From the IMG/VR virus record IMGVR_UViG_3300043425_001673, positions 1 to 64,000 of that record: a DNA stretch of 64,000 bases; one strand, 5' to 3'. The stretch is from a virus. The translations under genes were made by a program, and so were the position numbers. This document shows, piece after piece, positions 3,061 to 36,983 of the stretch (position 1 is the stretch's first letter; each line of letters opens with the position of its first letter). The notes under the pieces are model-generated. The model saw nothing but the letters and a program-made list of their open reading frames with translations. It did no database searches and was not told the DNA's origin.

Positions 3061-3215
3061 AGGCTTTGGAGGATCATGTATTTTTTCTCGGCAATAACCT
3101 TCACTGGCAGCCCGATGAAGTCATGAGACTCCCCGTTTCCCGAAGGTATCGGTTTGTCGTCATTCTTTCGAGACAGATTGAGGAACATAATTCCAAGATG
3201 AAGAAGGGAAAATAA
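3057..3215 (+). CDS. tail chaperone frameshift extension (GpE'-like), not in the ORF track
   Basis: Hand translation VKALEDHVFFLGNNLHWQPDEVMRLPVSRRYRFVVILSRQIEE..; HW...LP..RR pattern typical of these extensions. Confidence 0.75.
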   Translation: MKALEDHVFFLGNNLHWQPDEVMRLPVSRRYRFVVILSRQIEEHNSKMKKGK

Positions 3216-21104: not shown

Positions 21105-23417
21105 GTGAGCAGTCTTAACAAAGTCAATTATGTTGATCAGGATTTTACAACCGCACTGACTCAGGTGCGAAATTATCTTGCAACAAACTATCCGAATGAA
21201 TATAACGATTATCTCGCTTCCAACCTCGGAACCGCTCTTTTAGATATCATCGCCTATGCTGAACAAAACCTTCTTTGGTATCTGAACCGAAAAGTCACCG
21301 ACCTATACTTTCCGACAGCTGTCACGCCAAAGTCCATATCCAAACTGGCAAGATTGCTGGGATACAAATCGCGCGGTGCGACCAGCGCTGAAGCTTCGGT
21401 GACTTTGAACTTCCCGGACGCTCCCTATACCTTTCCCGTTCAAATCAATCGCGGCTTTCAATGGCAGGGACCAAACAACACGGTCTGGGAATATCGAGGC
21501 AACGTCACACTCGTTCTGCAGCCGGGACAAACTTCGATCGGCAACGTGGTCCTCTCGCAAGGTGCGACCACGATCAATAACTTTGTGTCCGATGGAACGA
21601 ACAACCAGTTCTTTGAACTCCTGTCCGTTCCGCAGGGCAAGTTCGTCGATAAAAATTCCGTGGTTGTGACGATTGATGGTGAGGAATGGACTGAGCAGCC
21701 TGTCATTCCATTCTCAACTGAGAACAACTTTGAGACAAACCTTCTGGCCTTTCCACCTGTCGTGCGGTTTGGCGATGGTGTGCAGGGAAATATTCCTCCC
21801 GTTGGAGCGGGGATTCAGGTCACTTATGTCATCTCTGATGGATTTTTGGGAAGGATTACCAGTCAGAGCATTGGTGATCCCGTCGTTGGCCTTGTTGCAC
21901 AGTTTCAGGATATCCCTGTTACGGTGGATCAGCCGCTGCCAAGTGTTGGCGGTGAAGATCCCGAGGATATCCGAAGCATCACGGTCAACGCTCCCAAGTT
22001 CCAAAGGGTTCAGGATCGGGCAATCACGAAGGATGATTACGACTATCTTTCCAACGGCTTTGATAATGTTGCCAAAGCCGATGCTCAGATTGTGCGTGGC
22101 GTCTCAGGTGACTTTCAAACCCTTTTCTATCTCGACTCGATTTCATCCACTGTTCAAAGTGCCGTGACAGGTGCCTTCTCGTTGACTGAATCCTATGTCG
22201 ATGATTTGAACCTAGCCGTGTCGGGCATCGTTTCATCCACGCTTCAGTGCGGTGAAAGTTTGATCGTTGATCTTCTCCCGATCACATCGGCTATATCCGG
22301 CTCTGTCGATCAGATTGAAACGGATACGAATGATGCGATTGAAACGGCAAAAACCAATTCCGATGTCTTTTATGCGACCGTGGAATCCAAACTCTATGAT
22401 GTCGATGAAACATCGCTTCTTCTCATAGATGAAATCACAACGGTCTTTGATGTAAAAAATACCAGTATCGAAAGCTATCTGACTGCAATATCGGGAGCCG
22501 CAACAGGGACATCAGGAGCCTCAACCATTGCGGCCAACATTACCCTGATCCGAAACAAGCTGACCGACATGCGCTCGACTCTGCAGGCGACCGCCACAAC
22601 ATCCCAGGCAACAATTGATGGTTTGACTGATGAAACCATTACGGCGGTTGATGGAATCATGACCGAAATCACCTCCCTTTCCGGCGTGATTCAGGCGGCT
22701 GTGGCCAACGATCAAACCCAGATTGCCATTGATCTTGGACAAATCATTGATACCGTATCGGGAGCCGCTTCAGGCTTTTATGGAACCGTATCGGGATATC
22801 TTCAGACCATTGATGAATCGGTTTCCGGCATCAACCTTCTTTACTATCAGGCGACCAGCGGACTCTTTCAAAGTGTTGAGGCTGATGTTCAAGGTCTTTA
22901 TGCTCACCTTGACGAGCATCTTTCCGATTCCTGTATGGCCAACCTTGTTCAGGTCAAGGTTCTCGGCAAGGACAGCAACAGAAAATACGTGGCTCCCCTT
23001 CAGGATACGCTCGATGAACTCAAAGCCTATCTTGAAGCACGAAAGGACATCGTTCATACGATATCCTGTGTGGAAGGAACGGCTGATGTGATCAACGTCA
23101 ATATCACGATAGACGTAAAGGTCAATGAAAACGCGGTTGAGGATGATGTGCTTCAGTCGGTGCGTGATGCTCTTGAAAAATCTGATGTTCAGCCGTTTGG
23201 TATTCTGGTTGAACGTGCTTTCAACAAGCCGCTTTACATCTGGGAAATTGATGGAGCAATCCGTGATCGTGTAACGGAAGGTCATATTGATTATCTCAAC
23301 ATCAAGATCATTGGACCGGCTGAGTATCTTGATACGGCAGGGAACCTGATCAGTCCAAGTGGTTCCGTTCTTCAGGCAGGAACGATTACGGTGACGGCTC
23401 TGCCACGATTTGTTTAA
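21105..23417 (+). CDS. baseplate J / gp6-like wedge protein with a large helical insertion
   Basis: YVDQDF, LGTALLDIIAY, LARLLGY, FGDGVQG.IPP, GGEDPED, RAIT.DDY. Confidence 0.9.
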   Translation: MSSLNKVNYVDQDFTTALTQVRNYLATNYPNEYNDYLASNLGTALLDIIAYAEQNLLWYLNRKVTDLYFPTAVTPKSISKLARLLGYKSRGATSAEASVTLNFPDAPYTFPVQINRGFQWQGPNNTVWEYRGNVTLVLQPGQTSIGNVVLSQGATTINNFVSDGTNNQFFELLSVPQGKFVDKNSVVVTIDGEEWTEQPVIPFSTENNFETNLLAFPPVVRFGDGVQGNIPPVGAGIQVTYVISDGFLGRITSQSIGDPVVGLVAQFQDIPVTVDQPLPSVGGEDPEDIRSITVNAPKFQRVQDRAITKDDYDYLSNGFDNVAKADAQIVRGVSGDFQTLFYLDSISSTVQSAVTGAFSLTESYVDDLNLAVSGIVSSTLQCGESLIVDLLPITSAISGSVDQIETDTNDAIETAKTNSDVFYATVESKLYDVDETSLLLIDEITTVFDVKNTSIESYLTAISGAATGTSGASTIAANITLIRNKLTDMRSTLQATATTSQATIDGLTDETITAVDGIMTEITSLSGVIQAAVANDQTQIAIDLGQIIDTVSGAASGFYGTVSGYLQTIDESVSGINLLYYQATSGLFQSVEADVQGLYAHLDEHLSDSCMANLVQVKVLGKDSNRKYVAPLQDTLDELKAYLEARKDIVHTISCVEGTADVINVNITIDVKVNENAVEDDVLQSVRDALEKSDVQPFGILVERAFNKPLYIWEIDGAIRDRVTEGHIDYLNIKIIGPAEYLDTAGNLISPSGSVLQAGTITVTALPRFV

Positions 23418-23434
23418 GGTGAAAAGGATTTCCA

Positions 23435-23893
23435 ATGAGTATCGTTACGGCTATCCCAACTCAGTTTTTGAAATTCCCAATCCCAGGTGAGGACAGCGAT
23501 CCCTACTATGATCAGTTTGTCGAATTGATGAGCGTGGTGGAGAACTGGTCCTATATGAATGCGCTGATCAGAAATATTTTTCTGAGTGGCGGGGGAACAT
23601 TCACATGGGATGGAGTGAATGGGATTTTGCAGTGGACCGATGATTTTGCGGTGCCAATCTTTTTTTGGGGAAAAAGACTTCTCCTTCGCTATGGACCTGA
23701 CAACGCTTCGAGAAATTTTCAGCTACAGAATGGACAGGCCGCAATCATTGAAATTCCGTATGTGATTGGAACCGATACGGTCCTGAATTTTTCAGTCGTC
23801 TCGCAGCTTGATCAGACAAAACCCAATCAGTGGGTTGTCGGCTGGCGTGATGGAAGTTCGCTTTGGCTTCATACTCTTGGTCAAATCACCTGA
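23435..23893 (+). CDS. baseplate/tail structural protein
   Basis: Operon context; LSGGGTFTW. Confidence 0.55.
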   Translation: MSIVTAIPTQFLKFPIPGEDSDPYYDQFVELMSVVENWSYMNALIRNIFLSGGGTFTWDGVNGILQWTDDFAVPIFFWGKRLLLRYGPDNASRNFQLQNGQAAIIEIPYVIGTDTVLNFSVVSQLDQTKPNQWVVGWRDGSSLWLHTLGQIT

Positions 23894-23904
23894 AAGAATT
23901 ATAA

Positions 23905-24780
23905 ATGGTCACAAGACGAACAGGCTCAGGCTTCGGGCATACTCCTTTCGGAAGACGTTTCGGCAAAACCAACTATGGCCAGGACGTTATTCGGAACAAT
24001 TTGCCTGAGTCGTATCTTCTTGATGAAGACGGAAATGAAAATCAGCTGATTGCCCACTATCTCATGACGATTGAGGATAGTGTTGATCGGGTAAAAGCAG
24101 AAATTGATATCCTGGATCAGCAGATTGATTTTACTCAGGTTCGCGCCGATCTTTTGGAATACCTTGGTTCAACCATTGATGTCACAATTGATGATTCCGA
24201 GCCGGAAGAGTTTCAAAGATCGCTCGTTGGAAATGCGATTCAGTATTATCAAATCAAGGGAACCGGGCAGGCTTATCAGATACGGGGAAAAATTTCCGGC
24301 TTCAATGTCACGGTTGATAACCTTTACAAGATTGCCGATGATCTTGTCTCAGCCTTCCCTTCCGATGAACTCTTTGAAGTTCCCCCTGGATCGGGCATCT
24401 ATTTCACTATCCTTCCCCCTGGAAGTGTATCGGGAACGCCGACCGAACTTTCCTGTGATTATTGCCTGACAGCCTTCATCAAGCTTAACTTTGAAGTGGT
24501 CAAGGCTCAGCCGCCAGCTGTTGTAGGTGAAGGAAACTTTTTTGATCGACTTACCTTCAAGCTGCGTGAAATCATTCCGATTCATGTCAGGGATGTGCTC
24601 TTTGAACTTACAAGCACAATCATCGTTGATAACAACGATCAGATTGTTCTTGTCTCGGCTGTTGAAACCAGTTTCAATCCTGTTCCCTTTTTCTATCGCT
24701 TTGATAACTTTTCTGCCGACTCTGTTCCCTGCGATTGGCACGGTGCGGTTTCCGGTTTGGTTCAAACTGAGTTGGTATAG
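23905..24780 (+). CDS. baseplate wedge / tail protein I-like
   Basis: LLEYLG..I, YQIKGT, IIPIHV. Confidence 0.75.
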   Translation: MVTRRTGSGFGHTPFGRRFGKTNYGQDVIRNNLPESYLLDEDGNENQLIAHYLMTIEDSVDRVKAEIDILDQQIDFTQVRADLLEYLGSTIDVTIDDSEPEEFQRSLVGNAIQYYQIKGTGQAYQIRGKISGFNVTVDNLYKIADDLVSAFPSDELFEVPPGSGIYFTILPPGSVSGTPTELSCDYCLTAFIKLNFEVVKAQPPAVVGEGNFFDRLTFKLREIIPIHVRDVLFELTSTIIVDNNDQIVLVSAVETSFNPVPFFYRFDNFSADSVPCDWHGAVSGLVQTELV

Positions 24781-24795
24781 AGGAATCCAAAAAAT

Positions 24796-25251
24796 ATGGC
24801 TGACGCAATACTCACAGGAATCATCACAAACAAAGGCAGGGAAACCTTTGCCAAGGCGTTTGGACGAATCGGAACAGGTGTCGAAAGTTATGCCTTCAAA
24901 TTCAAATATGGTGAGGGTGGATTCATTCAAACCATAAATGGCAAAATACCTAAAGATCCTTCCGATGGAGTTGACCTGCTCGATGTTGAAGCTGCTTCCG
25001 ATCCGAACCTTTTTGTTTACACAAAAAACTTCGTGGTCACTGATTTGACGTTTTTTGCACCGTCCACCATGCAGTGTCGATGTCGGCTTGTCGAACTTGA
25101 GGCCAACGATAATGGATTTGGGGATAATCCCGGATTTTTTGAACTCGGAATTTTTGACAACAATGATAACCTAATGGCCTATACAACTTTTGCGGAACAA
25201 ACAAAAACAAGTAACAAAATTATCACCAATTTTGTTCAAATCGTTTTCTAA
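24796..25251 (+). CDS. tail collar / fibre-attachment protein
   Basis: IITNKGRE..A, ELGIFD....LMAY.TF...K. Confidence 0.7.
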   Translation: MADAILTGIITNKGRETFAKAFGRIGTGVESYAFKFKYGEGGFIQTINGKIPKDPSDGVDLLDVEAASDPNLFVYTKNFVVTDLTFFAPSTMQCRCRLVELEANDNGFGDNPGFFELGIFDNNDNLMAYTTFAEQTKTSNKIITNFVQIVF

Positions 25252-25266
25252 AGCAGCAGGGAATAT

Positions 25267-26667
25267 ATGGCTAGCATAACAACACAAACTCTGCTTCCGT
25301 CCTTCGTCAAGATGAGGTGGAACGAGCCGTATGTCTCGGCTGGTTTAAACCGTAAAACGTTTAAGAATACTCCGCGCGGTGTTTATTCAGGTTTTGTTGT
25401 CAAACCCGGTCCCGGTGCTTTTGACATTACGATTGCGCACGATGATCCTGAAGGCTATGGCATCGTATCGGGGTTTGCGGGTGGAAATTTTGATACAGCC
25501 TCGGGCTGGTCTGTGGCTGTGCATGAAAGTCTGATCGGCTTCAATACCACGGTCGCAATCCTTTCAAGTGAAACCACCAATTTCACATTCGATCTTTCGG
25601 GTGTGAAGGGCCAAACGGTTTACGCTGCACTCCATGTCGATTACAAAAGTGGACTTGATACTGTTGCCTCAATTCAAATCATTGAGGCATCCGATCTTGA
25701 GGCTGATCCGACACTGATCAACCTTGCAAGAATTGATGTTCCACTGGTTGGCTCCATTTCGACAGCCAACATTGTCTATGATGATCCAAGCTATCCTCGC
25801 GTTCTGCCGTTTGCCACGCCGTATAAATTCGGCTTCATGGATAAGTTTCAGGCTCAGATTCTTGAGGAACTGCAGTCGGTATCGAGCGCACCTGCCTTTT
25901 TCTATGAAACGGTTGTAACAGTTGACGGTCCCCAGACCGTAAGTCTTCCCCCGCTTGCCATATACACGGTTGGAGCCGATGACCTATGGGTTCATCGCAA
26001 TGGCCGCCTTATGGGGGTTGGCCGTGACTATGATGAAGTCGATCGTGGCGATGGATATGGTGAGGAAGTCGATTTCATATCGAGCCTTGTGGCAGGCGAC
26101 ATCATCACCTTCCGCATTCAAAAGTATGCAGCAAGCCTGACATCAAAGACCAAGGTTTTGGATGAAGGCGCTTTGATCAGTGACAACGTGGTCTTCATGA
26201 ATTTTTCAGGTGCCGGGGTTTCCGTGCAGCCTGATGGACCTTCGCGTGTCAAGATTGTCATTCCCGGTGGTGGAGCCTCGGCAGGCATAAGAACCAAGAC
26301 GAACAATACGGGTTCATCGCTTGCCGTCTATCGTGCGGTCACTCTTTTGTCCGACAACACCATCAAATATTTTGATCCGACTGTTTCAGGTGAGTCACTT
26401 TATGGAGTCACCATCCAGACCATACCCGATGCCTCGCCTGGGGACGTGCAGGTTCTTGGAGTAATTGTCGGTGCAGCCGCAGGTGTCAGTGGTGCTATAA
26501 TTGGCCAGGATTGCTATGTGTCCCATGCAGGTGATGGATCGCTTACGACGATTCCCCCTGATCCTTTGTCCGGTCAGGTTGTGCGGCTTGGCATCTTTGA
26601 AGGTGACAACACCATCGTCACATCGACTGCGACCGATATCCTGATCGACAAAGAGAGGATAGCCTAA
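25267..26667 (+). CDS. tail fibre/appendage protein
   Basis: PRGVYSGF N-terminus, V.RNG...G.DY.E repeat domain, C-terminal decoration-like domain. Confidence 0.65.
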   Translation: MASITTQTLLPSFVKMRWNEPYVSAGLNRKTFKNTPRGVYSGFVVKPGPGAFDITIAHDDPEGYGIVSGFAGGNFDTASGWSVAVHESLIGFNTTVAILSSETTNFTFDLSGVKGQTVYAALHVDYKSGLDTVASIQIIEASDLEADPTLINLARIDVPLVGSISTANIVYDDPSYPRVLPFATPYKFGFMDKFQAQILEELQSVSSAPAFFYETVVTVDGPQTVSLPPLAIYTVGADDLWVHRNGRLMGVGRDYDEVDRGDGYGEEVDFISSLVAGDIITFRIQKYAASLTSKTKVLDEGALISDNVVFMNFSGAGVSVQPDGPSRVKIVIPGGGASAGIRTKTNNTGSSLAVYRAVTLLSDNTIKYFDPTVSGESLYGVTIQTIPDASPGDVQVLGVIVGAAAGVSGAIIGQDCYVSHAGDGSLTTIPPDPLSGQVVRLGIFEGDNTIVTSTATDILIDKERIA

Positions 26668-27392
26668 TGAGTCAAAATCTTCTCAAACTTCAAATAGTCA
26701 ACGGTCGGGCTCGGACATCAGTCGTCGATGAGGACAACGATGGTTTTCGCTTCAAGGAAATAACCATCGGAAGCGTGACGCTTACCGAAGAGGTTGTTTC
26801 AGGTCTATCCTATGACTTGGTTCAGACCGTATCAGGTGATCTTCAGACTCAAATCGACAATCTTGCCCTGGATCAGCAGGGTGTATCGGGAAATCTTCAG
26901 CTGCAAATTGATCAGCTGTCGGGCGCTATCGACAGCATTCTCTCCAACAATCCCGATCAGTATATTGAAACCGTTGCTGAGGTTTCCGGTCAGACCATCT
27001 TCGATATTCCCTTCACCTTCGATCCTCTTTCAACCGTTCTCGATGTTGAAGTCTTCATCAATGGAAGACGTTATCCCCAGTGTACGGTTGGCGATTTTTC
27101 GACGGGAAATTTCCGCAAAAATTCATCGACTCAAATTGAACTCGATGCGACGATTCCCTACAACGCACAGTTTGTAATCTGGAAGCAAGGCACGGCAACA
27201 GGCGGCGGTGGTGGTGGAAGCACTGATCTTGATAACATCGACACCAATCCCAAACCCGCTGTGGCTGGCGGCTATAGCCTTGGAACGATATCAAGACCAT
27301 GGTCCGGTCTTTATCTGAAGGATACCGTGACAAGTCAGGTGTGGCTGCTTCAGGTTGTAAGCGGAGCCTTTGAAGTGATTGAGGTGCCGTAA
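26667..27392 (+). CDS. virion appendage protein (VSG-rich)
   Basis: VSGDLQTQID coiled repeats, VFINGR domain, YSLG...PW..LY. Confidence 0.6.
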   Translation: MSQNLLKLQIVNGRARTSVVDEDNDGFRFKEITIGSVTLTEEVVSGLSYDLVQTVSGDLQTQIDNLALDQQGVSGNLQLQIDQLSGAIDSILSNNPDQYIETVAEVSGQTIFDIPFTFDPLSTVLDVEVFINGRRYPQCTVGDFSTGNFRKNSSTQIELDATIPYNAQFVIWKQGTATGGGGGGSTDLDNIDTNPKPAVAGGYSLGTISRPWSGLYLKDTVTSQVWLLQVVSGAFEVIEVP

Positions 27393-27947
27393 ATGGGCTA
27401 TGCAATCATCAAAACCAAAGCTGTTGAGTTTGAGCCGATCAATCCCAATGATGCAAGGCCAAACTCAATCTATGTTGATACCTTGAACGCCAATACCTTC
27501 AGTAATAAAAATGATGAAGGAACCAATCAGACTGTTGCTGCAGCGCCGGACAGTTTCGCCAAGCAGGCAAAGAACATGACAGGCGTTACGATTCCAGCCA
27601 TGACGCCAATCTCACGCGCGGGGGATGGAACGATTGTCCCGGCTGATTCGGATGCAGCCCAAGGCCAGCGTCCCATTGGTGTCACGATGGAAGCTATTTT
27701 GCACAACAGTTTTGGATTAATTGGGCTTGTCGGAAAAAACATCACAGGCGCACTGACTTCCTATTCCTTCTCGCCTGGACAGGATCTTTATGTGAGTGAG
27801 ACAGGCGGTTACACGGCTGATGGAAACTCATTTTCCGGTGACAACGATTCATTGATTCTCATCGGAATTGCCGATTGCGCTGATGGTGATGCTTCCGCTT
27901 CGGCTCCTGATCTTATTCTTTTGAGACAGATTCTGGTCAGACCATAG
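27393..27947 (+). CDS. virion decoration-like protein
   Basis: ADSD...IGV, PGQDLYVSETGG; paralogous to the C-terminal domains of its neighbours. Confidence 0.55.
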   Translation: MGYAIIKTKAVEFEPINPNDARPNSIYVDTLNANTFSNKNDEGTNQTVAAAPDSFAKQAKNMTGVTIPAMTPISRAGDGTIVPADSDAAQGQRPIGVTMEAILHNSFGLIGLVGKNITGALTSYSFSPGQDLYVSETGGYTADGNSFSGDNDSLILIGIADCADGDASASAPDLILLRQILVRP

Positions 27948-28021
27948 TTTTTTGAATTTGGTATTTTTGAATTTTTGTTTTGAGCCGCAGTTTTTAGAAA
28001 CAAAAAATAGGAAAGCGAAAC

Positions 28022-29191
28022 ATGGCAAATTCAAGAAAGTATTTGGTCCTTGAAAATGGCCAGTATAAGGTTCGTGAGTCTTCAACCGACCAGATTATCT
28101 TTGATTCGGTGATGATTGGCGGCGTGTCCGGTGTTGAAATCACCGAGAACCTTGGCAATCTCGACTTTGAGGGAGCCATAATTCAAAACATCGGCGAGCC
28201 TTCCAGCGGTTCCGATGCTACAACCAAGTCCTATGTTGATGGACAGATTGAACTTGTTTCGGCTGGCTTTGATCCCAAAGCTTCGGTTGACTATGCAACG
28301 ACTGCTGCACTTCCTGCAGTAACCTATAACAACGGAACGGGTGGTGTTGGTGCAACGCTGACAGCTGATGCCAACGGCGCTCTCTCGGTCGATGGTGCAT
28401 CGCCTTCTGTTGGGCAGCGTATCCTTGTCAAAAATCAGGTCGCTGGTCTTCAAAACGGTATTTACGATGTGACCGCAGCAGGTGATGGAAGCAATCCCTT
28501 TGTCCTGACTCGTTCCTCGGACTTTGATAACTCCCCGGCTGGTGAAGTGACCAAAGGCGCAAGAACGCTTGTCACAACGGGCACAGCCAATGCTGGTTAT
28601 GCTTTCTTCCTTACAACAGCAGGCACAATCACAATCGGCACCACTGCACTTTCGTTTAGTCCTGCCGGTGCTTCGATCGTGACCGCAACAGCGGGCTCAG
28701 GCGGTGCAACGCAGGGTATCGTGACCGCCGATACGGATAAAGGTCTTGATATCATCGCTGGCGTGATGGAAGTCAAGGTCGATGATAATACGACTCAATT
28801 CGTTTCCGGTGATGTTGCTGTCAAGCATACCCTTGCCAAGACCAATGACAATGCAGGCAGTATCACCGTTCGTCAGCTGGTTTATATCAAAAGCAACGGC
28901 AACGTTGATCTTGCGACAGCAGCCAACGCAACATCGGCAGTGGAACTCGGCATCGTTTCCGATGCATCCATTGCCACAACCGCTTCCGGTCAAATCTATC
29001 TTCGCCGTGGCGCGATCGTGGGTGGATACACAGGGCTTACTCCTGGCCAGCATGTTTTCGTCCATCCATCGACTCCCGGTTCGTACACTCAGGATGCAAG
29101 CACCGTAACAACCGGGCATCTCTATTCGGTTGGTCGGGCACTCTCGGCAACACAGGTCGCTTACGATCCAAGGCATATAGCAGAATTGTGA
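28022..29191 (+). CDS. tail fibre / head decoration protein
   Basis: DATTKSYVD, DPKASVDYATT, GQRILVKNQ....NGIY, LTRSSDFD. Confidence 0.75.
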   Translation: MANSRKYLVLENGQYKVRESSTDQIIFDSVMIGGVSGVEITENLGNLDFEGAIIQNIGEPSSGSDATTKSYVDGQIELVSAGFDPKASVDYATTAALPAVTYNNGTGGVGATLTADANGALSVDGASPSVGQRILVKNQVAGLQNGIYDVTAAGDGSNPFVLTRSSDFDNSPAGEVTKGARTLVTTGTANAGYAFFLTTAGTITIGTTALSFSPAGASIVTATAGSGGATQGIVTADTDKGLDIIAGVMEVKVDDNTTQFVSGDVAVKHTLAKTNDNAGSITVRQLVYIKSNGNVDLATAANATSAVELGIVSDASIATTASGQIYLRRGAIVGGYTGLTPGQHVFVHPSTPGSYTQDASTVTTGHLYSVGRALSATQVAYDPRHIAEL

Positions 29192-29203
29192 TTTATGGGT
29201 TTT

Positions 29204-29233
29204 CCGGGGAATCTTAACGGTTCCCCGGTTTTT
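29204..29233 (+). terminator. intrinsic terminator
   Basis: CCGGGGAA..TTCCCCGG followed by TTTTT. Confidence 0.7.
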
Positions 29234-29243
29234 AAGGGATTTT

Positions 29244-29546
29244 GTGATGCTTAAGCCGCTTTATCTTGATACCCAGACTGGCGCTTACAAGGCTAGAAGT
29301 CCAACGGGTGATATTTTTGATTTCGATGTTTCAAGTGTTTCAGGACAGACAGATTTTCCGGTTGAAGCTGGACTTATGACTGCTGAAAGTTATGTGCAGG
29401 TTTTGGTAAACGGTCGGGAACATCGGGAAGGAGCGGTTTATGACTTCGAGCGTGATGTTCCAAATGATCAAATCGTTTTTAACTATGCTGTTCCACAAAA
29501 CGCATGGGTAAGAATAAAAATCTTCCCTCCATTCGGAGTTTCCTAA
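29244..29546 (+). CDS. small virion protein
   Basis: GQTDF..VLVNG..EG..YDF repeat domain shared with neighbours. Confidence 0.55.
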   Translation: MMLKPLYLDTQTGAYKARSPTGDIFDFDVSSVSGQTDFPVEAGLMTAESYVQVLVNGREHREGAVYDFERDVPNDQIVFNYAVPQNAWVRIKIFPPFGVS

Positions 29547-29547
29547 T

Positions 29548-30450
29548 ATGGCAGAGATGAAAGGTCAAAACTGGCAGGATGTGCAGGAATCATCTCTGCC
29601 TGTCTTGGGCACACCAGAAAGAACTACAAATGAAGTTATTCTTTCGAGGGTGGACAGGTCATTTAATGAGCCGGTTCGCATTTATGCGGCTGTTGATCCC
29701 GACAGTAGACTTTACTTTGAAGCAAGTGAAGTCCTTTTGGGTGATGGTGCCGTTCGGAACCTGATGCCTGTTGAAGAGACGATTGTTGATTCAGTATCGG
29801 GCTCACTCAATTACCAGCTGATCACATCCATGGTCGATGGAATCACGCTCACAAGGGATGGAGCATCCTATACTCATCCCGTTGCAACGGCTTCAGGCAA
29901 ATTTATTGCCGGGGTTTTTTGCCGAAAGAAAAACGGAACGTTTGACAGCACCTATAGCGCTGAACAGAACACCTTGAATCAGGTTCTGGCGCTTGACCTT
30001 GGAACTCTTTTCGCTGATATAGGCGGTCTTCCAATAGGTTATATTTTCCTTGAGTCAACCGACAACGCCGGTCGCTGGAAAACAGCGGGCTCGGTGTCAG
30101 GTGTCATTGAAAACCGGGTTGGCAGTCAAAGCACGATAGGAAGGATTCATTGTCCGGTTGATCTTGATTATTTCAGGACACAAATCCTGTCGCTTCAAAC
30201 GCAAATTGATACAATAAATAATACCTATCCACAGGAGGAATATTATGAGGCAGTTTCTGCCGGTCATAGAGCCTTCTCGGTAAGTGGATTCACCTTCGAT
30301 CCAGACAATTCGCGCAAGGACATTCAGGTATTCAGGAACATGGGACGCCTTAAAAGTCCCAAGGATTTTTCCAAGACTTCATCAACTGCGATTCTTTTGA
30401 CGTTTGATCCGGCCATAGGCGATGAAATTCTGATCGACAAAAGACGTTAA
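29548..30450 (+). CDS. tail fibre-associated protein
   Basis: Paralogous to the N-terminus of 30469-32427 (IGYI.LES, VSG.IEN). Confidence 0.55.
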   Translation: MAEMKGQNWQDVQESSLPVLGTPERTTNEVILSRVDRSFNEPVRIYAAVDPDSRLYFEASEVLLGDGAVRNLMPVEETIVDSVSGSLNYQLITSMVDGITLTRDGASYTHPVATASGKFIAGVFCRKKNGTFDSTYSAEQNTLNQVLALDLGTLFADIGGLPIGYIFLESTDNAGRWKTAGSVSGVIENRVGSQSTIGRIHCPVDLDYFRTQILSLQTQIDTINNTYPQEEYYEAVSAGHRAFSVSGFTFDPDNSRKDIQVFRNMGRLKSPKDFSKTSSTAILLTFDPAIGDEILIDKRR

Positions 30451-30468
30451 GCATAGGGATTTGAAAAT

Positions 30469-32427
30469 ATGACTTCACCACGTCCTGAAACTTTAAACCG
30501 TTTGACAGACATCGTCTTTGACAAGGTCATGCGTACTCTGAGGACGCCTGACAAGAACGCGCCGCTTTATGAACTCCTGTCGGAAATGATGTCGCGTCTT
30601 GATACGGAACTCGATCTTCCCTTGCGGCTCAGTGCCACAACACCAAGTTCCACCAAGCTTTTGATTCGTGCCAATCGCGTGTTGAGTGGTGACGGCGGCC
30701 AAAGGTCCCTTCCACCGGATGGTGTTGACTTTTTGTCCTTTCCCGACACGACGATTGATTTTGACAACGGCTCGGTATCCGGGGGAACCATCAAGCGTGA
30801 TGGTTTGGATTGGAGCGTTCCGCTTGTCACTGTCGGCCAATTTGTTCGGGTTGGCTTTGCCTATAATGCGGCTGAAAACTGGGTTGATACGACTTTCAGT
30901 TCGGCATCGGTTACGCTTGGTGCGCTCACCGATCCTGGGGTTCTCCTTGATGCTCTTACCGGAACCAAGATCGGTTACATTGACCTTGAGAGTGATGGAG
31001 TTTCCAGCTTCAAAACGCCGAATTCGGTGTCAGGTTACATCGAAAACGCTGTGTCGGGTGTTCCCTATATCTTCCGCTTTTTGAGCGGCGGTGGAACCGG
31101 GACGGGCACCGGGGATGCATCGACAATCAGAACGGCGCTGGAAAACCAGCTGCAGGAATCGACCTATGATCTTTTGACAGCTGTTGATTTTGCCATTGAT
31201 GAGGATGCCTTTGTTGACTTGGCATCGACAGGGATCTATTCCAATCGCAAGTTTGTTCTTGCCGTCTCAGGCGACACATTTGAATCCATCAATTTGTTTG
31301 ATGCTTCAGAATATTTGGCTGATCCGACCATTCCATCAAAGATCGACATCACAGCCTTCTGGGATGCGCTGGCGATAGACGCCGATGCCGTTTACGAAGT
31401 CAGCCGTGATGGTGGGGTTGATTGGCAGACTGTTTCCGGGATGGAGCGGGTTGGTGTTGCGACGAATGGTTTTGTCGGAACCCATATCTTTGATTACGGG
31501 ACCGATTCGACCTTCACATCCAACACAGCCGCGCAAACCAGCGGCTATGAGATGAACAGCACAAGCCAGACCACCTATCAGGACAGTTTCGCTGTTCTTG
31601 AGTCGTCGGTAATTCGCCGGGTTCAGCTTTTGAACTTTGTGAAGACGGGAAGTCCGGTTGGAAATCTGTATGTCGATATTTGTGCTGATAACGGCGGGAA
31701 TCCTGGCAACGTTCTGGCCACGTCCTCGGGTGTCGCGGTGTCCGGTCTTTCCTCGGGAACGGTGACGATTGATGTATCGGAAGCGGCTTTGGTGGATGGA
31801 ACCTACTGGGTTGTGGTGCGTACCGATGCCGTTTACAAATCCAGCTTCTCGGCAGGTGTTACGAGCGTCACGCTTTCCTTGAATGCCAACGGACTCAGAG
31901 GCAATTATCAGGGCTATGTGCTTGACCTTCGGCTTCGGATCACTTCAGCAAATCCGAATGTGAACCTGACTGGCTTCGGTGTCTTTTACATGCAGTCGAT
32001 CGGAACCGTGCAAGGCGGCTCGATCAAAAAGGATACGAAGATATTTAGAACGACTGAAAACCTCAATGAGTTCACGCTGAACTTCATCGCTGATCCTGAT
32101 CTTTTGAAGTGTTATCACATCGAAACCGGACAGGTTTATCACCATCCGGCTTTTGCGCTTTCCGGTTCGGATGTGACTTTCCCGGTCAACACCTTTCAAT
32201 CCATCTCTGATGAGCAGGTCACGCTTCTTTTCCTTCAGGTTGAAGGATCAAGCTTTGACAATAGCGACCTGAATGCAGCGCTTCTGGCTGCAAACTTCCT
32301 TGGATCAACGGATACTCTCGTGGATCGAAGTTCAAGCGGTCGCGGTATTTTCCTGAGAAGACCTGATGGGACCTTGAGGGAAATCACAATCGACAATAGC
32401 GACAACATAGCTGTCTATAGCGTTTAA
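30469..32427 (+). CDS. tail fibre protein
   Basis: 652 aa, beta-rich; KTGSP.G..DNGG.PG..LA..GTYWVV module. Confidence 0.65.
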   Translation: MTSPRPETLNRLTDIVFDKVMRTLRTPDKNAPLYELLSEMMSRLDTELDLPLRLSATTPSSTKLLIRANRVLSGDGGQRSLPPDGVDFLSFPDTTIDFDNGSVSGGTIKRDGLDWSVPLVTVGQFVRVGFAYNAAENWVDTTFSSASVTLGALTDPGVLLDALTGTKIGYIDLESDGVSSFKTPNSVSGYIENAVSGVPYIFRFLSGGGTGTGTGDASTIRTALENQLQESTYDLLTAVDFAIDEDAFVDLASTGIYSNRKFVLAVSGDTFESINLFDASEYLADPTIPSKIDITAFWDALAIDADAVYEVSRDGGVDWQTVSGMERVGVATNGFVGTHIFDYGTDSTFTSNTAAQTSGYEMNSTSQTTYQDSFAVLESSVIRRVQLLNFVKTGSPVGNLYVDICADNGGNPGNVLATSSGVAVSGLSSGTVTIDVSEAALVDGTYWVVVRTDAVYKSSFSAGVTSVTLSLNANGLRGNYQGYVLDLRLRITSANPNVNLTGFGVFYMQSIGTVQGGSIKKDTKIFRTTENLNEFTLNFIADPDLLKCYHIETGQVYHHPAFALSGSDVTFPVNTFQSISDEQVTLLFLQVEGSSFDNSDLNAALLAANFLGSTDTLVDRSSSGRGIFLRRPDGTLREITIDNSDNIAVYSV

Positions 32428-32442: not shown

Positions 32443-34761
32443 ATGGCAAGAGCACTTGTTGGAAATCTTGGTGAGACGGTTTCAAAGATCAGTGAATCAT
32501 TCACTGATCTTCCAAAGATAAATGTTCCACTTACGAATATTGTGAATCGGGGACAAATCACAGACTTTGCGAATGATGGTCTGCCAAAGTTTGCAATTGA
32601 AAGAGTAAATATTCAAACGATCGTTGAAGTTCATAATGAAAGCGGTCCTGCTGGGCAAAAAGTATGGAAAGCAGTTAATGATATTCATGATCAAATCCGC
32701 TTTTATGGACCTTGGACGAATCCTGTTGATGTAAACGGCCAAAGACCACAAGGCGCATCAGGTGCTGTATGTGAGATCACATTTTATGGAACTGGATTAA
32801 ATCTTCTTCGTTATAACGACAGTTCAAACAGAACTTTTAGTTATAGTGTTGATGGTGGTGCCTCAAACAACGTAACAGGCGCATGGTCTGATGCCATTCT
32901 TGCAAGAAGTTACAATCCCAACATAGTATTCAATCTGACTTCAAATCTTACTCTTGGCTGGCATACTGTTATACTTACCAGTTCCAGTAATGCTCTTGGT
33001 GTTTTTGGATTTGAAGTCATTAATTCAAGTGCAAATATATTTCTTCCGACTACCACAACTTATTCTGCTGGAAAAAAACTTTCAGCAGCATCAGGAACGA
33101 CTGCTTATAATTCAGGTTTTGAATCAGGAACACTCGGGACTCGTGGTGGTCATGTTTTAGTTTATCAAAAATCTGATGGAACAATTGCCAAAGCGGTAAC
33201 TCCAACAAACGCAAGTGCGGCTTATCTATCCAGTGCTGACCACACCAATGAGGAAATGATAAGAAGATTAAATCCAAGAGAATTTGGCGCTGGAAGATCC
33301 GATGATTTTTCGACTGTCACCATGAATGGAAGTGAAGTTCTTGCCTTCACTCTCGATGACGGAACTACAACGTTGATGTCATCAGGGGCATATTTTAACA
33401 GTTCTCATCAAGGTTATCTGGGTAACAACACGGTCGGGGTGTATTTTACTCTGACATTTGTTGGAACTGGTCTTGATATAACGCATTTCCCTTTTAATAC
33501 AACAGGCACTCAGACATGGTCTGTGACAATTGACGGCGTGGCTCAGGGAAGCTATGATGTCACAGCTGATTCAGGTTTGATTAAGAAATATAAAATTTGT
33601 TCCGGCCTTCCCTATGGCACTCATAATGTTCGCATCACAACAACAGCAAATCCTGCAGGCGCTCAACTATTTACGTATTTCGATATTTATGCTCCAAAAA
33701 CACCTACACTCCCATCCGGTGCTGTAGCTCTCTGTGATTATTTTATCATGGCGGATTTTGCTGCAAACAGCACGGCTGGTGTTGAGCGAATATCATCAGG
33801 TGTTTTGAGAAAAGTTTCCACGCGAGAATTCACTTATGTAAATGGCACGGGTGGAACAGTGGATTGGCAAGTTGGTGGATCACCTTTTACAAGTAATATT
33901 GGTGGTCCTCAGCTTGAGACAAACAGACAAAACGCATATTTTGAATATACGTTTTTTGGAACTGGTTTTGATTATAGGTTCCCTTCTATTTCCAGTGGCT
34001 CAGCAAATATTCAATTATCTTTGCAGAGTCTATCGACAGGTGGATCGCTTCAGAATTTGACCACCGCAAATTTCCCGACTATTTCTTCATCAGTTTATGG
34101 GACTGGCGCAGCTTTTAATGCAGCAACCGGCGTTATGGATCAGCTGGATGCTTCAAACACTGTTGGTTGTGGAATCGTAATATCAGGATTACCTTTAGGG
34201 TTATACAAAATAAGATTTTTGAATAATACTGCTAGTTCGTATATTGTTCCCAGTGTTCTTGATATTATCACGCCTATACATGCTCCGAAGGAAATTGGCC
34301 CTTCAAGATTGCAAAACATTTCTTTAATAGGATCTAATGCGATCCGTGATCTTAGAAATTTTTCCTCTTTGATAATAGCTAATCAAAGTTCTTTATGTCA
34401 GGCCATAGGGATTGTTTCAGCGCCAACTACTACATCTGGTTCTGAAGTTCCTTTAAAAGATTCATGTGTAGTATTGAAAACCACAGGAAAACCTGTTTTT
34501 GTAGTTTTTGATGGGATTTTCACAAATAATTCAGTTGGTCAAACAACTGATGTTCTCCTTTATGTAGACGGAATTGGTGTTGGAGCTACAAGACGCCAAG
34601 CGATGCCAGCAACAAGTGGTTATCGGTCTGTGGTATCTTTTTCATATATGCTTGAATTGTGTGCTGGAACTCATAAAATTGATGTTTATTGGGCAGTTTC
34701 AGGAGGAACGGGTACGGCTATTGGTGGCAATAGAACTTTGATTGCGAGAGAAGTTCAGTAA
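32443..34761 (+). CDS. receptor-binding tail protein with repeated carbohydrate-binding-like domains
   Basis: Three TF.GTG...DG..GLP.G.H repeats; AT-richer than upstream genes. Confidence 0.65.
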   Translation: MARALVGNLGETVSKISESFTDLPKINVPLTNIVNRGQITDFANDGLPKFAIERVNIQTIVEVHNESGPAGQKVWKAVNDIHDQIRFYGPWTNPVDVNGQRPQGASGAVCEITFYGTGLNLLRYNDSSNRTFSYSVDGGASNNVTGAWSDAILARSYNPNIVFNLTSNLTLGWHTVILTSSSNALGVFGFEVINSSANIFLPTTTTYSAGKKLSAASGTTAYNSGFESGTLGTRGGHVLVYQKSDGTIAKAVTPTNASAAYLSSADHTNEEMIRRLNPREFGAGRSDDFSTVTMNGSEVLAFTLDDGTTTLMSSGAYFNSSHQGYLGNNTVGVYFTLTFVGTGLDITHFPFNTTGTQTWSVTIDGVAQGSYDVTADSGLIKKYKICSGLPYGTHNVRITTTANPAGAQLFTYFDIYAPKTPTLPSGAVALCDYFIMADFAANSTAGVERISSGVLRKVSTREFTYVNGTGGTVDWQVGGSPFTSNIGGPQLETNRQNAYFEYTFFGTGFDYRFPSISSGSANIQLSLQSLSTGGSLQNLTTANFPTISSSVYGTGAAFNAATGVMDQLDASNTVGCGIVISGLPLGLYKIRFLNNTASSYIVPSVLDIITPIHAPKEIGPSRLQNISLIGSNAIRDLRNFSSLIIANQSSLCQAIGIVSAPTTTSGSEVPLKDSCVVLKTTGKPVFVVFDGIFTNNSVGQTTDVLLYVDGIGVGATRRQAMPATSGYRSVVSFSYMLELCAGTHKIDVYWAVSGGTGTAIGGNRTLIAREVQ

Positions 34762-34788
34762 AAAAATTCCATTTTATGGAGCTATGAA

Positions 34789-35592
34789 ATGGGTCAAGTA
34801 TTAACAGCCGATAATATTCCCGATCTTGTTATTGCATCCACCACGACGATTACCATGGCAACGACATACCTTGGTAAATCGACACGAATCACGATCGGTG
34901 GTCAGCAATACAAATATTCTTCGCTCACGACATTGAATTTTGGGACGACTGGATTCAATGGCCTTGATACAGGTTCCATTGCATCCAACACTCTCTATTA
35001 TATCTATGCGGTTCAGTCGGCTGGAACGCCTGGACTTGTGGCCTCGCTTGCAGCACCAACGGTAGGACCGACTGGTTTTACAGCATGGAAGGAAGTTGCA
35101 AGGTGTAGAACGCTTTACACGGCAGCGACTCTTGCAGCTGTCGCCAATAGGGTTGGTGGTTCATCGCAGGCGTTAATTTCATCAAAAACATTTTTTACGC
35201 CTATTTTAGGTGGGACAAGTGGCAACGGATCAGGTCTTTCTCTTTCTCAGAATGGATCATTTTATACTCGAAGCGGTGAGTTGGCTGATGTTTGGATAGA
35301 ATTGGTAATGTCAGCAGTTTCTGTGGCTCCTACAGGATTTTTAACTTTAGGCATACCAAACGCGACTCCAAATCTGGTAACAGGTTCCAGTACAGTCCAT
35401 GTTGGATCAGGTTATTTTCAAGACAATAGCGGTGGGTTGAATTTAGGTGACTGCCCAATATATGGCGACAACACGCCTAGAGTTTACATTTCGCAAAACA
35501 ACAACACAGCCACACCTTCATTGGCGGCGAATGATATTGTTCGGATTTCTTATACAATACCTATTATTGAATGGTCTGGTCTTTACACCTAA
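34789..35592 (+). CDS. tail fibre protein
   Basis: GLDTGSIASNT.YYIYAV..P.GFT module plus C-terminal Y.R.G domain. Confidence 0.65.
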   Translation: MGQVLTADNIPDLVIASTTTITMATTYLGKSTRITIGGQQYKYSSLTTLNFGTTGFNGLDTGSIASNTLYYIYAVQSAGTPGLVASLAAPTVGPTGFTAWKEVARCRTLYTAATLAAVANRVGGSSQALISSKTFFTPILGGTSGNGSGLSLSQNGSFYTRSGELADVWIELVMSAVSVAPTGFLTLGIPNATPNLVTGSSTVHVGSGYFQDNSGGLNLGDCPIYGDNTPRVYISQNNNTATPSLAANDIVRISYTIPIIEWSGLYT

Positions 35593-36944
35593 AAAGAATT
35601 GGTAGGTTAAAAACTATGTCGATAAACGCAAAATCCGTAAAATCCATTCGTAAAAAGGATTTGAGCACACAAAAGACTCCTTTTGTTGCATTCAAATCCT
35701 TCAGCTTTGCTCATGAAGCAACAGCTGGTCAAACAGTTATCAGTCTTACATCTCTGAGCACACCAAGCAGTCTTTCATCTCAAGGCTTTTTGCAGCCTTC
35801 AGCTTCTGATTTGGCAGCTGCAAATCTTCTCATGTATAAGCGAAATCTCAGACTCCAATCAAGTCTGAGGGGAACTCTTATCGAGTATGATTCCTATCGT
35901 ATCGTTGGTAGCAGCACGATTCAGCTGACTTTTGAAGCCGAGTCGGGGGAAATATTTGTTGGCGTTATCTCTGACATTGCGAAGTCCGGTCTTCAGGTTA
36001 TTGATGCCAATACGCTTGTTGCCACAGGAACACTCGCAGCAGGTCAGACTGATTTTGTGGTTGGTCAATCCTTTGCTCTGAATCAATATCCTTTGAAGCA
36101 GGTTGGCGATGTCCTGGTCTTTCTGGATGGTGTTCAACAATTCCGCAATGTCGGAAATGCAACAGCATCTGTGAGTGCTGATGGAAATTATCAGGAAGTT
36201 GATGGTGGACAGGGATTAAGCAATACGATCAGGTTCAATATCGTTGATCCTTTAAATGATCGCTCAATTCTTGTCGTAAGCAACGGAACTTTGGCTGAAA
36301 GACCTGAAGGAAGTATGCGGGCTGAGATTGAAAGCCTTGCTGCTCAGGTTGATTCGGTGATTGAAACGCTTGCCGTTGTCGCAGGAGTGCCTGAGTCTAA
36401 TTTTCAGAGTGCTCCGAATCAGGTCGATCTTCAGACGTTTGGTCAAAGGGTAATTAATCTTGAATCAAACCGGGCTCGGATCGACCAAACAAATACCTTT
36501 TCTGTTTTTCAGAATATCCCTGGAAGAACTGATGGATTAGCTGTTTCTGCTGGTTTTCCAGGGGAACATATAATTGCTGCTGTTACCAACGCAACAACTC
36601 CTGGAACAGGTTCTGGTTTTGCTAGTGTGGTATGCAGGACTTTGACTTTGAACAAAGGTGTTTATCTAATTTTGTCTCAATTCAATCCGTCTGGTTTTGG
36701 AGGTAATACTGGATTGACAGTAGTTTCGATTGCTGCTGGTGTTGGAAGTCCAACTTTGCTCGGCTGCACGTCATCGACAGCTTATAGTCCAGGCGCGGAT
36801 ATTACCAGGGCTTCTCATACAGCATTTTGTATTGTTAATACAGACAACTCAACTGTAACACAATCAGCCAGCGCATCAACGGGCTCTACTATTTCAGGGA
36901 CTGTGACTTTGGGTGGTGCTTTGGTAGCTGTCCGAATAGCATGA
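35571..36944 (+). CDS. tail fibre protein
   Basis: AGQTDF, VFLDGVQQ, GRTDG...G..GE; likely ATG at 35616. Confidence 0.65.
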   Translation: MVWSLHLKRIGRLKTMSINAKSVKSIRKKDLSTQKTPFVAFKSFSFAHEATAGQTVISLTSLSTPSSLSSQGFLQPSASDLAAANLLMYKRNLRLQSSLRGTLIEYDSYRIVGSSTIQLTFEAESGEIFVGVISDIAKSGLQVIDANTLVATGTLAAGQTDFVVGQSFALNQYPLKQVGDVLVFLDGVQQFRNVGNATASVSADGNYQEVDGGQGLSNTIRFNIVDPLNDRSILVVSNGTLAERPEGSMRAEIESLAAQVDSVIETLAVVAGVPESNFQSAPNQVDLQTFGQRVINLESNRARIDQTNTFSVFQNIPGRTDGLAVSAGFPGEHIIAAVTNATTPGTGSGFASVVCRTLTLNKGVYLILSQFNPSGFGGNTGLTVVSIAAGVGSPTLLGCTSSTAYSPGADITRASHTAFCIVNTDNSTVTQSASASTGSTISGTVTLGGALVAVRIA

Positions 36945-36983
36945 AGAACCTAAAGGCAACATAATAAAAAATAAGGAACGAAT

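What the first reader, a model, noticed from the sequence alone, without database searches (positions are those of the whole stretch)
21105..32427. Val-Ser-Gly is strongly over-represented in virion proteins: candidate glycosylation sequon
Seen: by hand I count about 27 VSG tripeptides in ~3,700 aa of baseplate/fibre proteins (5 in baseplate J, 5 in the 241-aa protein, 6 in the 652-aa protein), plus many ISG/LSG/TSG/ASG. Roughly 2-3 are expected from composition. The codons vary and the host proteins are unrelated, so it is not a DNA repeat. The AT-richer distal fibres (32443-37583, ~1,700 aa) have only about 1, and non-structural proteins almost none. Known: some mycobacteriophages glycosylate virion proteins with their own glycosyltransferases. 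Inference: a phage-encoded O-glycosylation system (rmlA/B plus GTs) recognises VSG to coat the virion.
Basis: partly seen in the sequence, partly recalled or inferred. Interest (0 to 1): 0.8.

Follow-up and report, generated by a model that had tools for sequence, protein, structure and literature searches.

The report
Val-Ser-Gly tag on phage tail proteins
The baseplate and fibre proteins of this uncultured 95-kb phage and its closest relatives carry the tripeptide Val-Ser-Gly about eleven times more often than chance; it may mark where the phage's own enzymes attach sugars, but no chemistry shows any modification.

Summary
Observation confirmed. The 11 ORFs at 21105-32427 hold 27 VSG in 3,696 aa against 2.5 expected (p 3e-19). 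The rest of the window holds 5 against 5.0 expected.

- **Protein-level signal:** the motif is in frame, on the + strand only, with varied codons.
- **Exact motif:** VTG occurs once and ISG three times. The residue before V is small in 22 of 27 cases.
- **Clade-wide:** six phages forming one clade on the gp6 tree share the excess. 33 other relatives tested do not.
- **Not tied to one fold:** VSG sits in predicted helices, strand-to-turn junctions and, in relatives, 8-residue repeats.
- **Not inherited with the fold:** members of the 652-aa protein's large family show no excess overall, yet this lineage converged on VSG at six sites.
- **Sugar genes:** the clade alone carries GT9 and a nucleotide-sugar dehydratase; here RmlA and RmlB sit among tail genes.

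The glycosylation sequon reading is plausible (about 0.4) but unproven. The gene link is a single evolutionary event, and no modification has been shown. A purely structural motif is the main rival.

This scan has already noted the same VSG excess on two other uncultured phages.

The parts
21105..23417 (+). T4 gp6-like baseplate wedge protein, 770 aa, with 5 VSG. All five lie at or inside the variable middle insertion (aa 333-575).
   Evidence: phrog_219 E 8e-34. Foldseek matches T4 gp6, P1 and KP1 baseplate chains. The AF2 model has pLDDT 86, with aa 337-606 as long helices. VSG positions.
23905..24780 (+). P2 gpI-like baseplate protein, 291 aa, with 2 VSG.
   Evidence: Pfam Tail_P2_I E 6.6e-7; counts.
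25267..26667 (+). Fibre-like protein, 466 aa, with 3 VSG. Its orthologues in relatives are also VSG-rich (L002 has 4, L014 has 6).
   Evidence: The N-terminus matches phrog_2631, tail fibre. Orthologue counts.
26667..27392 (+). 241-aa fibre protein with 5 VSG. The N-terminal part carries VSG-x-LQxxID segments, and two further VSG positions are conserved in the family.
   Evidence: Alignment A2. The L002 homologue has 10 VSG in 295 aa.
28022..29191 (+). 389-aa fibre/decoration-like protein with 2 VSG.
   Evidence: phrog_30390, phrog_8745 and phrog_2647.
29244..29546 (+). 100-aa protein with 1 VSG.
29548..30450 (+). 300-aa protein of unknown family with 3 VSG.
30469..32427 (+). 652-aa peripheral baseplate or receptor-binding-type beta-sandwich protein with 6 VSG, placed at strand-to-turn junctions or in coil.
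   Evidence: AF2 pLDDT 82 with DSSP assignment. Foldseek matches phi812 baseplate chains. The family has 616 representatives with a median VSG observed/expected ratio of 1.0. Site-by-site comparison.
32443..37583 (+). AT-richer distal fibre genes, serving as a contrast: 1 VSG in 1,695 aa.
   Evidence: CE2_N domain in 32443-34761.
55103..57403 (+). Candidate modifying enzyme: a 766-aa fusion of GT2, SAM methyltransferase and GT9 (heptosyltransferase-like) domains, with no predicted membrane segment.
   Evidence: Pfam Glycos_transf_2 8.5e-19, Methyltransf_11 2e-6, Glyco_transf_9 1.1e-19. Maximum hydropathy 1.42 over 19 aa. PDB sequence hits: 3tov, WaaF, TibC at E 0.017.
3215..4084 (+). RmlA-like glucose-1-phosphate thymidylyltransferase, lying between tail genes.
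   Evidence: Pfam NTP_transferase 7e-70. Neighbours are T4_baseplate (2206-3060) and Phage_base_V (8967-9980).
16600..17565 (+). RmlB-like NDP-sugar 4,6-dehydratase.
   Evidence: Pfam GDP_Man_Dehyd 3.9e-70.

Best explanation
[small]-Val-Ser-Gly is a serine-specific tag that has been kept under selection on the outward-facing baseplate and fibre proteins of one deep phage clade.

The most likely function is as the acceptor site for a phage-encoded cytoplasmic O-glycosylation. In this inferred scheme, the soluble GT2-methyltransferase-GT9 enzyme recognises the tripeptide on tail proteins that are folding or already folded. The GT9 (GT-B) domain adds a first sugar to the serine. The GT2 domain extends it, possibly with a dTDP-6-deoxyhexose made by the phage's RmlA, RmlB and RmlC. 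The methyltransferase then caps the glycan.

Shown here: the enrichment, its exactness, its restriction to one clade, its independence of fold, and the presence and placement of the genes. Inferred: every chemical step, the choice of enzyme, and the sugar.
For: 1. **Enrichment:** 27 against 2.5 expected, the top tripeptide in the region.
2. **Exactness:** VSG 27, VTG 1, ISG 3. S fills 27 of 56 V-x-G tripeptides in the region but only 5 of 71 elsewhere. Position -1 is G, A, S or T in 22 of 27 cases, p 4e-7.
3. **Protein-level selection:** the motif is in frame and on one strand. At VSG sites shared with the 69%-identical L103, the codons differ synonymously.
4. **Fold-independent:** VSG lies inside predicted helices of the gp6-like insertion, at strand-end to turn junctions in the beta-sandwich 652-aa protein, and in GVSGxxxL octads in L003, L014 and L020.
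5. **Not inherited with the fold:** 150 members of the 652-aa family have a median observed/expected ratio of 1.0. Only the 65%-identical homologue shares the excess. At the six sites the homologues read TTG, VTG, VGG, ISA or VT-, and one VSG here was created by a Gly insertion.
6. **Turnover with a maintained count** across gp6-like homologues: 2-11 per protein against 0.3-1 expected, spread over 38 different alignment columns.
7. **Clade-wide:** VSG is the first- or second-ranked tripeptide in all five clade relatives. Most non-clade relatives show no tripeptide anywhere near as enriched.
8. **Gene co-occurrence:** GT9 is found in the window phage, G003 and G004 but in 0 of 33 non-clade records. 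The RmlB-like dehydratase is in 5 of 6 clade records but 0 of 33.
9. **Gene placement:** rmlA and rmlB are interleaved with tail genes.
10. **Precedent:** TibC and Aah, GT-B enzymes resembling WaaC, heptosylate Ser but not Thr in repeat proteins, for example Ser-313 in NSGG (PMC4358343). PBCV-1 A064R is a GT-GT-methyltransferase fusion that builds a capsid glycan (PMC7826918).
Against: - No glycan or mass shift has been observed.
- The six VSG-rich phages form one clade (SH-aLRT 96), so the co-occurrence of motif and genes counts as one event.
- The GT gene sits between primase and helicase genes, here and in G004. That placement would equally suit DNA hypermodification, and host LPS is another possible target.
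- G001 (67% complete) has a moderate VSG excess and a GT2 gene but no detected GT9.
- The GT9 domain is not specifically TibC-like (E 0.017).
- Four of the five VSG in the gp6-like protein lie inside predicted helices, where V may pack in a hendecad core. In that case a structural role alone could explain them.
- Surface exposure could not be computed, because no model coordinates are available.
Confidence: 0.4

Rival explanations
1. VSG is a purely structural motif. V ends a strand or fills a helical-bundle core position, and S-G forms a tight turn or allows close packing. The clade inherited and amplified it in fibrous modules through duplication and module exchange, and no modification takes place.
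For: - The 11-residue spacing at aa 551, 562 and 573 inside predicted helices, and the helix start just after VSG333.
- The 8-residue GVSGxxxL arrays in relatives resemble the T4 gp5C VxGxxxxx beta-helix repeat.
- In the 652-aa protein, V sits at strand ends with S-G in the turns.
- Homologues often carry chemically similar tripeptides at the same sites, such as VTG, ISG and VGG.
- Some VSG positions are conserved in the 241-aa family.
Against: - The same exact tripeptide recurs in three different structural contexts.
- S is preferred over T by 27 to 1, and V over I by 27 to 3.
- Members of the large 652-aa family share the fold but show no excess overall.
- Most non-clade baseplate and fibre modules show no comparably enriched tripeptide.
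- The distal fibres of this same phage lack the excess.
Confidence: 0.3
2. VSG is recognised by something other than a glycosyltransferase. Candidates include another serine modification (phosphorylation or acylation), a fibre-assembly chaperone, or a partner protein that docks on outer tail proteins.
For: Exactness, restriction to one clade and independence of fold all point to recognition by a protein. None of this evidence says that the recognising protein is a glycosyltransferase.
Against: No kinase, acyltransferase or dedicated chaperone was identified near the module. By contrast, sugar-nucleotide and GT genes are clade-specific.
Confidence: 0.17
3. The signal lies in the DNA or RNA: an oriented octamer GTNTCNGG, such as a Chi-like, packaging or regulatory site.
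For: The motif is strongly strand-biased, 26 on the + strand against 2 on the minus strand in the region. The GTA codon is used for 10 of 27 motif valines, although only 18 of the other 305 valine codons in the region are GTA.
Against: - 24 of 26 matches are in frame 0, and the degenerate positions are exactly the wobble positions.
- Three VSG use AGY serine codons.
- GTA is favoured before Ser codons across the genome, 21 of 83 valines before TCN.
- Orthologous VSG sites differ synonymously.
Confidence: 0.02

Closest known systems
Mycobacteriophage virion O-glycosylation by phage-encoded glycosyltransferases (Freeman et al. 2023, Cell Host Microbe; cited through PMC12619734)
   Same: The phage carries its own glycosyltransferases, which are proposed to decorate structural proteins of the virion.
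   Different: In mycobacteriophages the glycans sit on the C-terminal tails of capsid and tail-tube subunits of siphoviruses. Here the candidate sites are internal, form an exact tripeptide, and lie on baseplate and fibre proteins of a contractile-tailed phage. No glycan has been demonstrated here. The original paper could not be read.
Bacterial autotransporter heptosyltransferases TibC/Aah (BAHT family; PMC4358343)
   Same: These are cytoplasmic GT-B enzymes resembling the LPS heptosyltransferase WaaC. They add many sugars to Ser, not Thr, in repeat-rich surface proteins, and a mapped site lies in N-S-G-G. The phage enzyme has a GT9 domain, and the motif here is Ser-specific.
   Different: The phage GT9 domain is only weakly similar to TibC (E 0.017) and scores better against generic GT9 and WaaF chains. 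It is fused to GT2 and methyltransferase domains. The acceptors would be phage tail proteins, not autotransporters. The iron finger and dodecamer were not examined.
Chlorovirus PBCV-1 A064R, a three-domain GT-GT-methyltransferase that builds the capsid glycan (PMC7826918)
   Same: A virus-encoded multidomain protein combines two glycosyltransferase domains with a methyltransferase. It is tied to rhamnose chemistry and acts on a virion protein.
   Different: The domain order and families differ (GT2-MT-GT9 here). PBCV-1 glycans are N-linked on the major capsid protein of a virus of eukaryotes. Homology between the two enzymes was not tested.
T4 gp5 C-terminal triple beta-helix repeat VxGxxxxx
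   Same: The relatives L003, L014 and L020 have 8-residue GVSGxxxL arrays in which V and G hold the repeat's fixed positions.
   Different: In the window only one pair of VSG is 8 residues apart. Most are isolated or 11 apart and lie in other predicted folds. The middle residue is variable in gp5 (from my own knowledge) but is almost always Ser here.

Membership tests
Phage virion glycosylation system (mycobacteriophage type) | Phage-encoded glycosyltransferase(s). | tested here: met
   GT2-MT-GT9 at 55103-57403. A second GT2 lies at G000:94199-94558.
Phage virion glycosylation system (mycobacteriophage type) | Glycans on the C-terminal tails of capsid and tail-tube subunits. | tested here: not met
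   The motif is internal and sits on baseplate and fibre proteins. The tube-like protein 37896-38651 has 0 VSG. The capsid gene is not in this 67%-complete record.
Phage virion glycosylation system (mycobacteriophage type) | A glycan demonstrated on virion proteins. | not testable with these tools
   This needs mass spectrometry or glycan staining of virions or co-expressed proteins.
BAHT (TibC/Aah) protein O-heptosyltransferases | A GT-B heptosyltransferase catalytic domain of the WaaC/GT9 kind. | tested here: met
   Pfam Glyco_transf_9 E 1.1e-19. PDB hits to 3tov and WaaF.
BAHT (TibC/Aah) protein O-heptosyltransferases | Specific sequence relationship to TibC/Aah, closer than to LPS heptosyltransferases. 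| tested here: inconclusive
   TibC scores E 0.017, WaaC 0.04, WaaF 3e-6 and 3tov 1.6e-7. The domain is therefore no closer to BAHT than to LPS enzymes.
BAHT (TibC/Aah) protein O-heptosyltransferases | Serine-only acceptors in repeat or beta-helix surface proteins. | tested here: inconclusive
   The motif is Ser-specific (VSG 27, VTG 1), but actual acceptor use is unknown.
T4 gp5C-type VxGxxxxx beta-helix repeat | Tandem 8-residue periodicity of V-x-G. | tested here: not met
   In the window there is one pair at spacing 8 (aa 187 and 195 of the 652-aa protein) and a triplet at spacing 11; the rest are dispersed. Octad arrays are present in the relatives L003, L014 and L020.
PBCV-1 A064R-type multidomain glycan synthase | Two GT domains and a methyltransferase domain in one polypeptide. 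| tested here: met
   Pfam domain hits. The order is GT2-MT-GT9 rather than GT-GT-MT.
PBCV-1 A064R-type multidomain glycan synthase | Sequence or structural homology to A064R, and rhamnosyltransferase activity. | not tested

The most novel reading that the evidence does not exclude
A deep clade of contractile-tailed phages uses a three-residue O-glycosylation sequon, [small]-V-S-G. A soluble phage GT9-containing enzyme reads it and puts a methylated glycan on outward-facing tail, baseplate and fibre proteins. This would be the first defined sequon for phage virion glycosylation. Other phage lineages appear to carry different tripeptide tags, so it may be one case of a general system of lineage-specific tags.
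Probability: 0.35. Interest if true: 0.85.

Novelty: new variant of a known kind. Interest (0 to 1): 0.6.

Why it matters
Phage virion glycosylation has so far been shown only in a few systems, and none has a defined short sequon.

If VSG is a sequon read by a soluble phage enzyme, three things would follow:
- Glycosylation sites on uncultured phages could be predicted from sequence alone.
- It would suggest how outer tail proteins are shielded or tuned for adsorption.
- It would supply a compact tag-and-enzyme pair for cytoplasmic glycoengineering.

If the motif is purely structural, it is still an unusually sharp clade-specific signature. It would be useful for classifying these phages and for recognising recently exchanged fibre modules, because the VSG-poor distal fibres stand out.

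Tried and rejected
**Explanations tested and rejected**
- Chance or composition: rejected by the Poisson, Markov and shuffle tests.
- DNA repeat or oriented DNA motif: rejected by the frame, strand, codon and shared-k-mer checks. The apparent GTA codon excess is largely explained by a genome-wide preference for GTA before Ser codons.
- A property of fibrous or tail proteins in general: rejected, because most non-clade relatives show no comparable tripeptide.
- Inheritance with the fold: rejected for the 652-aa family.
- A membrane-bound GtrB-like role for the GT: unlikely, since no hydrophobic segment reaches a typical transmembrane level.

**Searches that gave nothing useful**
- Megablast of the region against the phage collection found no match.
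- Single-protein locus scans of viral contigs found nothing, either with the gp6-like protein or with the GT.
- The metagenome scan returned only four short contigs.
- Model coordinates are not exposed, so solvent accessibility of the serines was not computed.
- Freeman et al. 2023 is not held in the library.
- Literature searches found no description of VSG enrichment in phage tail proteins.
Full report
**Observation**

I translated the + strand ORFs of the window and counted tripeptides. The 11 ORFs from 21105 to 32427 (3,696 aa) contain exactly 27 VSG.

Composition predicts 2.46 VSG (Poisson p 3e-19), and none of 2,000 within-protein shuffles exceeded 9. A first-order Markov model predicts 8.8 (p 7e-7). 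VSG is the most enriched tripeptide in the region by about 14 orders of magnitude.

The remaining 15,386 aa of the window hold 5 VSG against 4.98 expected. The AT-richer distal fibres (32443-37583) hold 1.

**Level of the signal**

- Of 26 GTNTCNGG matches on the + strand of the region, 24 are in the coding frame. The minus strand has only 2.
- All four Val and Gly codons and five Ser codons are used.
- GTA accounts for 10 of 27 motif valines, which looks like an excess. Most of it is explained by a genome-wide preference for GTA before Ser codons, 21 of 83 valines before TCN.
- The 39-nt contexts share at most 15 nt.
- At VSG sites conserved with a 69%-identical relative, the codons differ synonymously.

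The signal is therefore in the protein.

**The motif itself**

The motif is sharp. The region has VSG 27, VTG 1, ISG 3 and LSG 8. S fills 27 of 56 V-x-G tripeptides in the region, against 5 of 71 elsewhere. The residue before V is G, A, S or T in 22 of 27 cases (p 4e-7). The sixth residue after G is hydrophobic in 18 of 27. The other flanking positions are diverse.

**The proteins**

- The record is a 94.8-kb linear phage contig estimated to be 67% complete.
- 21105-23417 is a T4 gp6-like wedge protein (phrog_219; Foldseek matches T4 gp6, P1 and KP1 baseplate chains).
- 23905-24780 is P2 gpI-like.
- 28022-29191 matches fibre and decoration PHROGs.
- 30469-32427 is a multi-beta-sandwich protein resembling peripheral baseplate proteins of phage phi812.

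**Structural context**

In the AF2 model of the gp6-like protein (pLDDT 86), residues 337-606 form long helices. VSG333 lies just before the first helix. VSG372, 551, 562 and 573 lie inside helices, the last three spaced 11 residues apart.

In the 652-aa model (pLDDT 82), VSG103, 195, 266 and 322 lie at strand-end to turn junctions. VSG187 and 424 lie in coil or a short 3-10-like turn.

In the relatives L003, L014 and L020, the equivalent gp6 insertion instead holds 8-residue GVSGxxxL arrays. The L002 homologue of the 241-aa protein has 18-residue VSGASSLRDDAQD... units. The same tripeptide therefore recurs in at least three kinds of structure.

**Evolution**

- *gp6-like homologues.* Those down to about 40% identity carry 2-11 VSG against 0.3-1 expected. 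These VSG occupy 38 different alignment columns, so the count is maintained while positions turn over.
- *Relatives in viral contigs.* Among 80 related loci, only L001, L002, L003, L014 and L020 show a strong excess, and VSG is their first- or second-ranked tripeptide. Most other loci have no tripeptide close to that level. The exceptions are LPS or PSL in L011, L025 and L029, HAE in L038 and VTG in L033.
- *Tree.* On a tree of the gp6 N-terminal domain (a quick search; the careful search did not finish), the window and these five loci form one clade with two deep sub-clades (SH-aLRT 96).
- *The 652-aa family.* It has 616 representatives. The 150 best have a median observed/expected ratio of 1.0, and only the 65%-identical homologue shares six VSG. 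At the window's six sites the other members read TTG, VTG, VGG, ISA or VT-, and one VSG arose through a Gly insertion.

Together these point to sustained, clade-specific selection for the exact tripeptide rather than inheritance with a fold.

**Sugar genes**

The phage encodes:
- RmlA (3215-4084), between a T4_baseplate-family gene and tail genes;
- RmlB (16600-17565);
- RmlC (G000:70616-71131);
- a 766-aa GT2-methyltransferase-GT9 fusion (55103-57403) with no membrane-like segment;
- a second GT2 running off the end of the contig.

No RmlD or GT1 gene was seen in the 67% of the genome that is available.

GT9 occurs in the window phage, G003 and the complete genome G004, and in 0 of 33 non-clade records, five of which are complete. 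The RmlB-like dehydratase occurs in 5 of 6 clade records and 0 of 33 others. An NTP-transferase occurs in G001, G004 and G005. GT2 is not clade-specific.

In G004 the sheath also carries 3 VSG against 0.29 expected.

**Limits**

- Because the six VSG-rich phages form one clade, the association between motif and genes is a single evolutionary event.
- The GT lies between primase and helicase genes, here and in G004. DNA or the host envelope therefore remain possible targets.
- The GT9 domain is a generic member of the superfamily: it scores 1.6e-7 against 3tov, 3e-6 against WaaF, 0.017 against TibC and 0.04 against WaaC.
- G001 has no GT9 in the 67% of its genome that is held.
- Serine exposure could not be measured.

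**Comparison with known systems**

- *TibC/Aah.* These show that a WaaC-like GT-B enzyme can add many sugars to Ser, but not Thr, in repeat proteins, including a site in N-S-G-G (PMC4358343).
- *PBCV-1 A064R.* This shows that a viral GT-GT-methyltransferase fusion can build a virion glycan (PMC7826918).
- *Mycobacteriophages.* Their glycans are reported on the C-termini of capsid and tube subunits (PMC12619734 citing Freeman 2023), which differs from the pattern seen here.
- *Literature on VSG.* I found no description of a VSG excess in phage tail proteins.
- *Earlier scan notes.* They report the same VSG excess on a 157-kb and a 135-kb uncultured phage, and other tripeptide tags in other lineages. 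I treated these as leads only. My own scan of the related loci found possible analogues: LPS or PSL and VTG.

**Verdict**

My weights for the explanations are:

| Explanation | Weight |
|---|---|
| Glycosylation sequon | about 0.4 |
| Purely structural motif | about 0.3 |
| Another recognition process | about 0.17 |
| DNA-level signal | about 0.02 |

The remaining weight is left unassigned. The sequon reading is the best single explanation, but it is unproven.

Noticed in passing
window 52734-55106: A 790-aa ORF contains an intein with a LAGLIDADG homing endonuclease (Pfam LAGLIDADG_3, Intein_splicing, Hom_end). Pfam did not identify the host (extein) protein.
   Followed up: no
window 58660-59706; L003 12499-14103: A TnpB / IS605 OrfB-like gene lies in the window phage. 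In relative L003, a TnpB plus IS200 TnpA pair sits directly downstream of the fibre genes and next to its GT9 gene.
   Followed up: no
window 34789-35592: A distal fibre protein gives a weak hit to the second domain of Mtd, the tropism determinant targeted by diversity-generating retroelements (E 2e-4, below the Pfam cut-off). The phage also encodes a reverse-transcriptase fusion at 14360-16549.
   Followed up: no
window 32443-34761 and G000:72212-74512: Two fibre-like proteins of about 770 aa each carry a carbohydrate esterase 2 N-terminal domain. They may be paralogous receptor-modifying fibres, and both are VSG-poor (1 each).
   Followed up: no
window 17987-18358 and 19626-20051: A GP17 superinfection-exclusion family domain and a DUF29 protein sit between rmlB and the baseplate genes.
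   Followed up: no
loci L011, L025, L029, L033: Other relatives outside the VSG clade show their own enriched tripeptides: LPS 14 against 1.4 (L011), PSL 12 against 1.6 (L025) and 11 against 1.2 (L029), and VTG 20 against 5.8 (L033). These may be analogous lineage-specific tags or simply repeats.
   Followed up: partly
L088:3126-4934 (G004 tail sheath): In the complete 160-kb relative G004, the tail sheath has 3 VSG against 0.29 expected. G004 also carries a polysaccharide pyruvyl transferase, a GT4-like gene and a separate methyltransferase at about 46-49 kb.
   Followed up: partly
whole genome G000: The rare valine codon GTA is preferred immediately before serine codons genome-wide (about 20-25% there, against 11% overall). 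This is a codon-pair bias unrelated to the motif.
   Followed up: yes
loci L066, L071, L077, L080: A second, distantly related clade of gp6-like loci shows a moderate VSG excess, 2 to 6 times expected, and in L080 an LSG excess as well. The records are short fragments and no GT was detected in them.
   Followed up: partly
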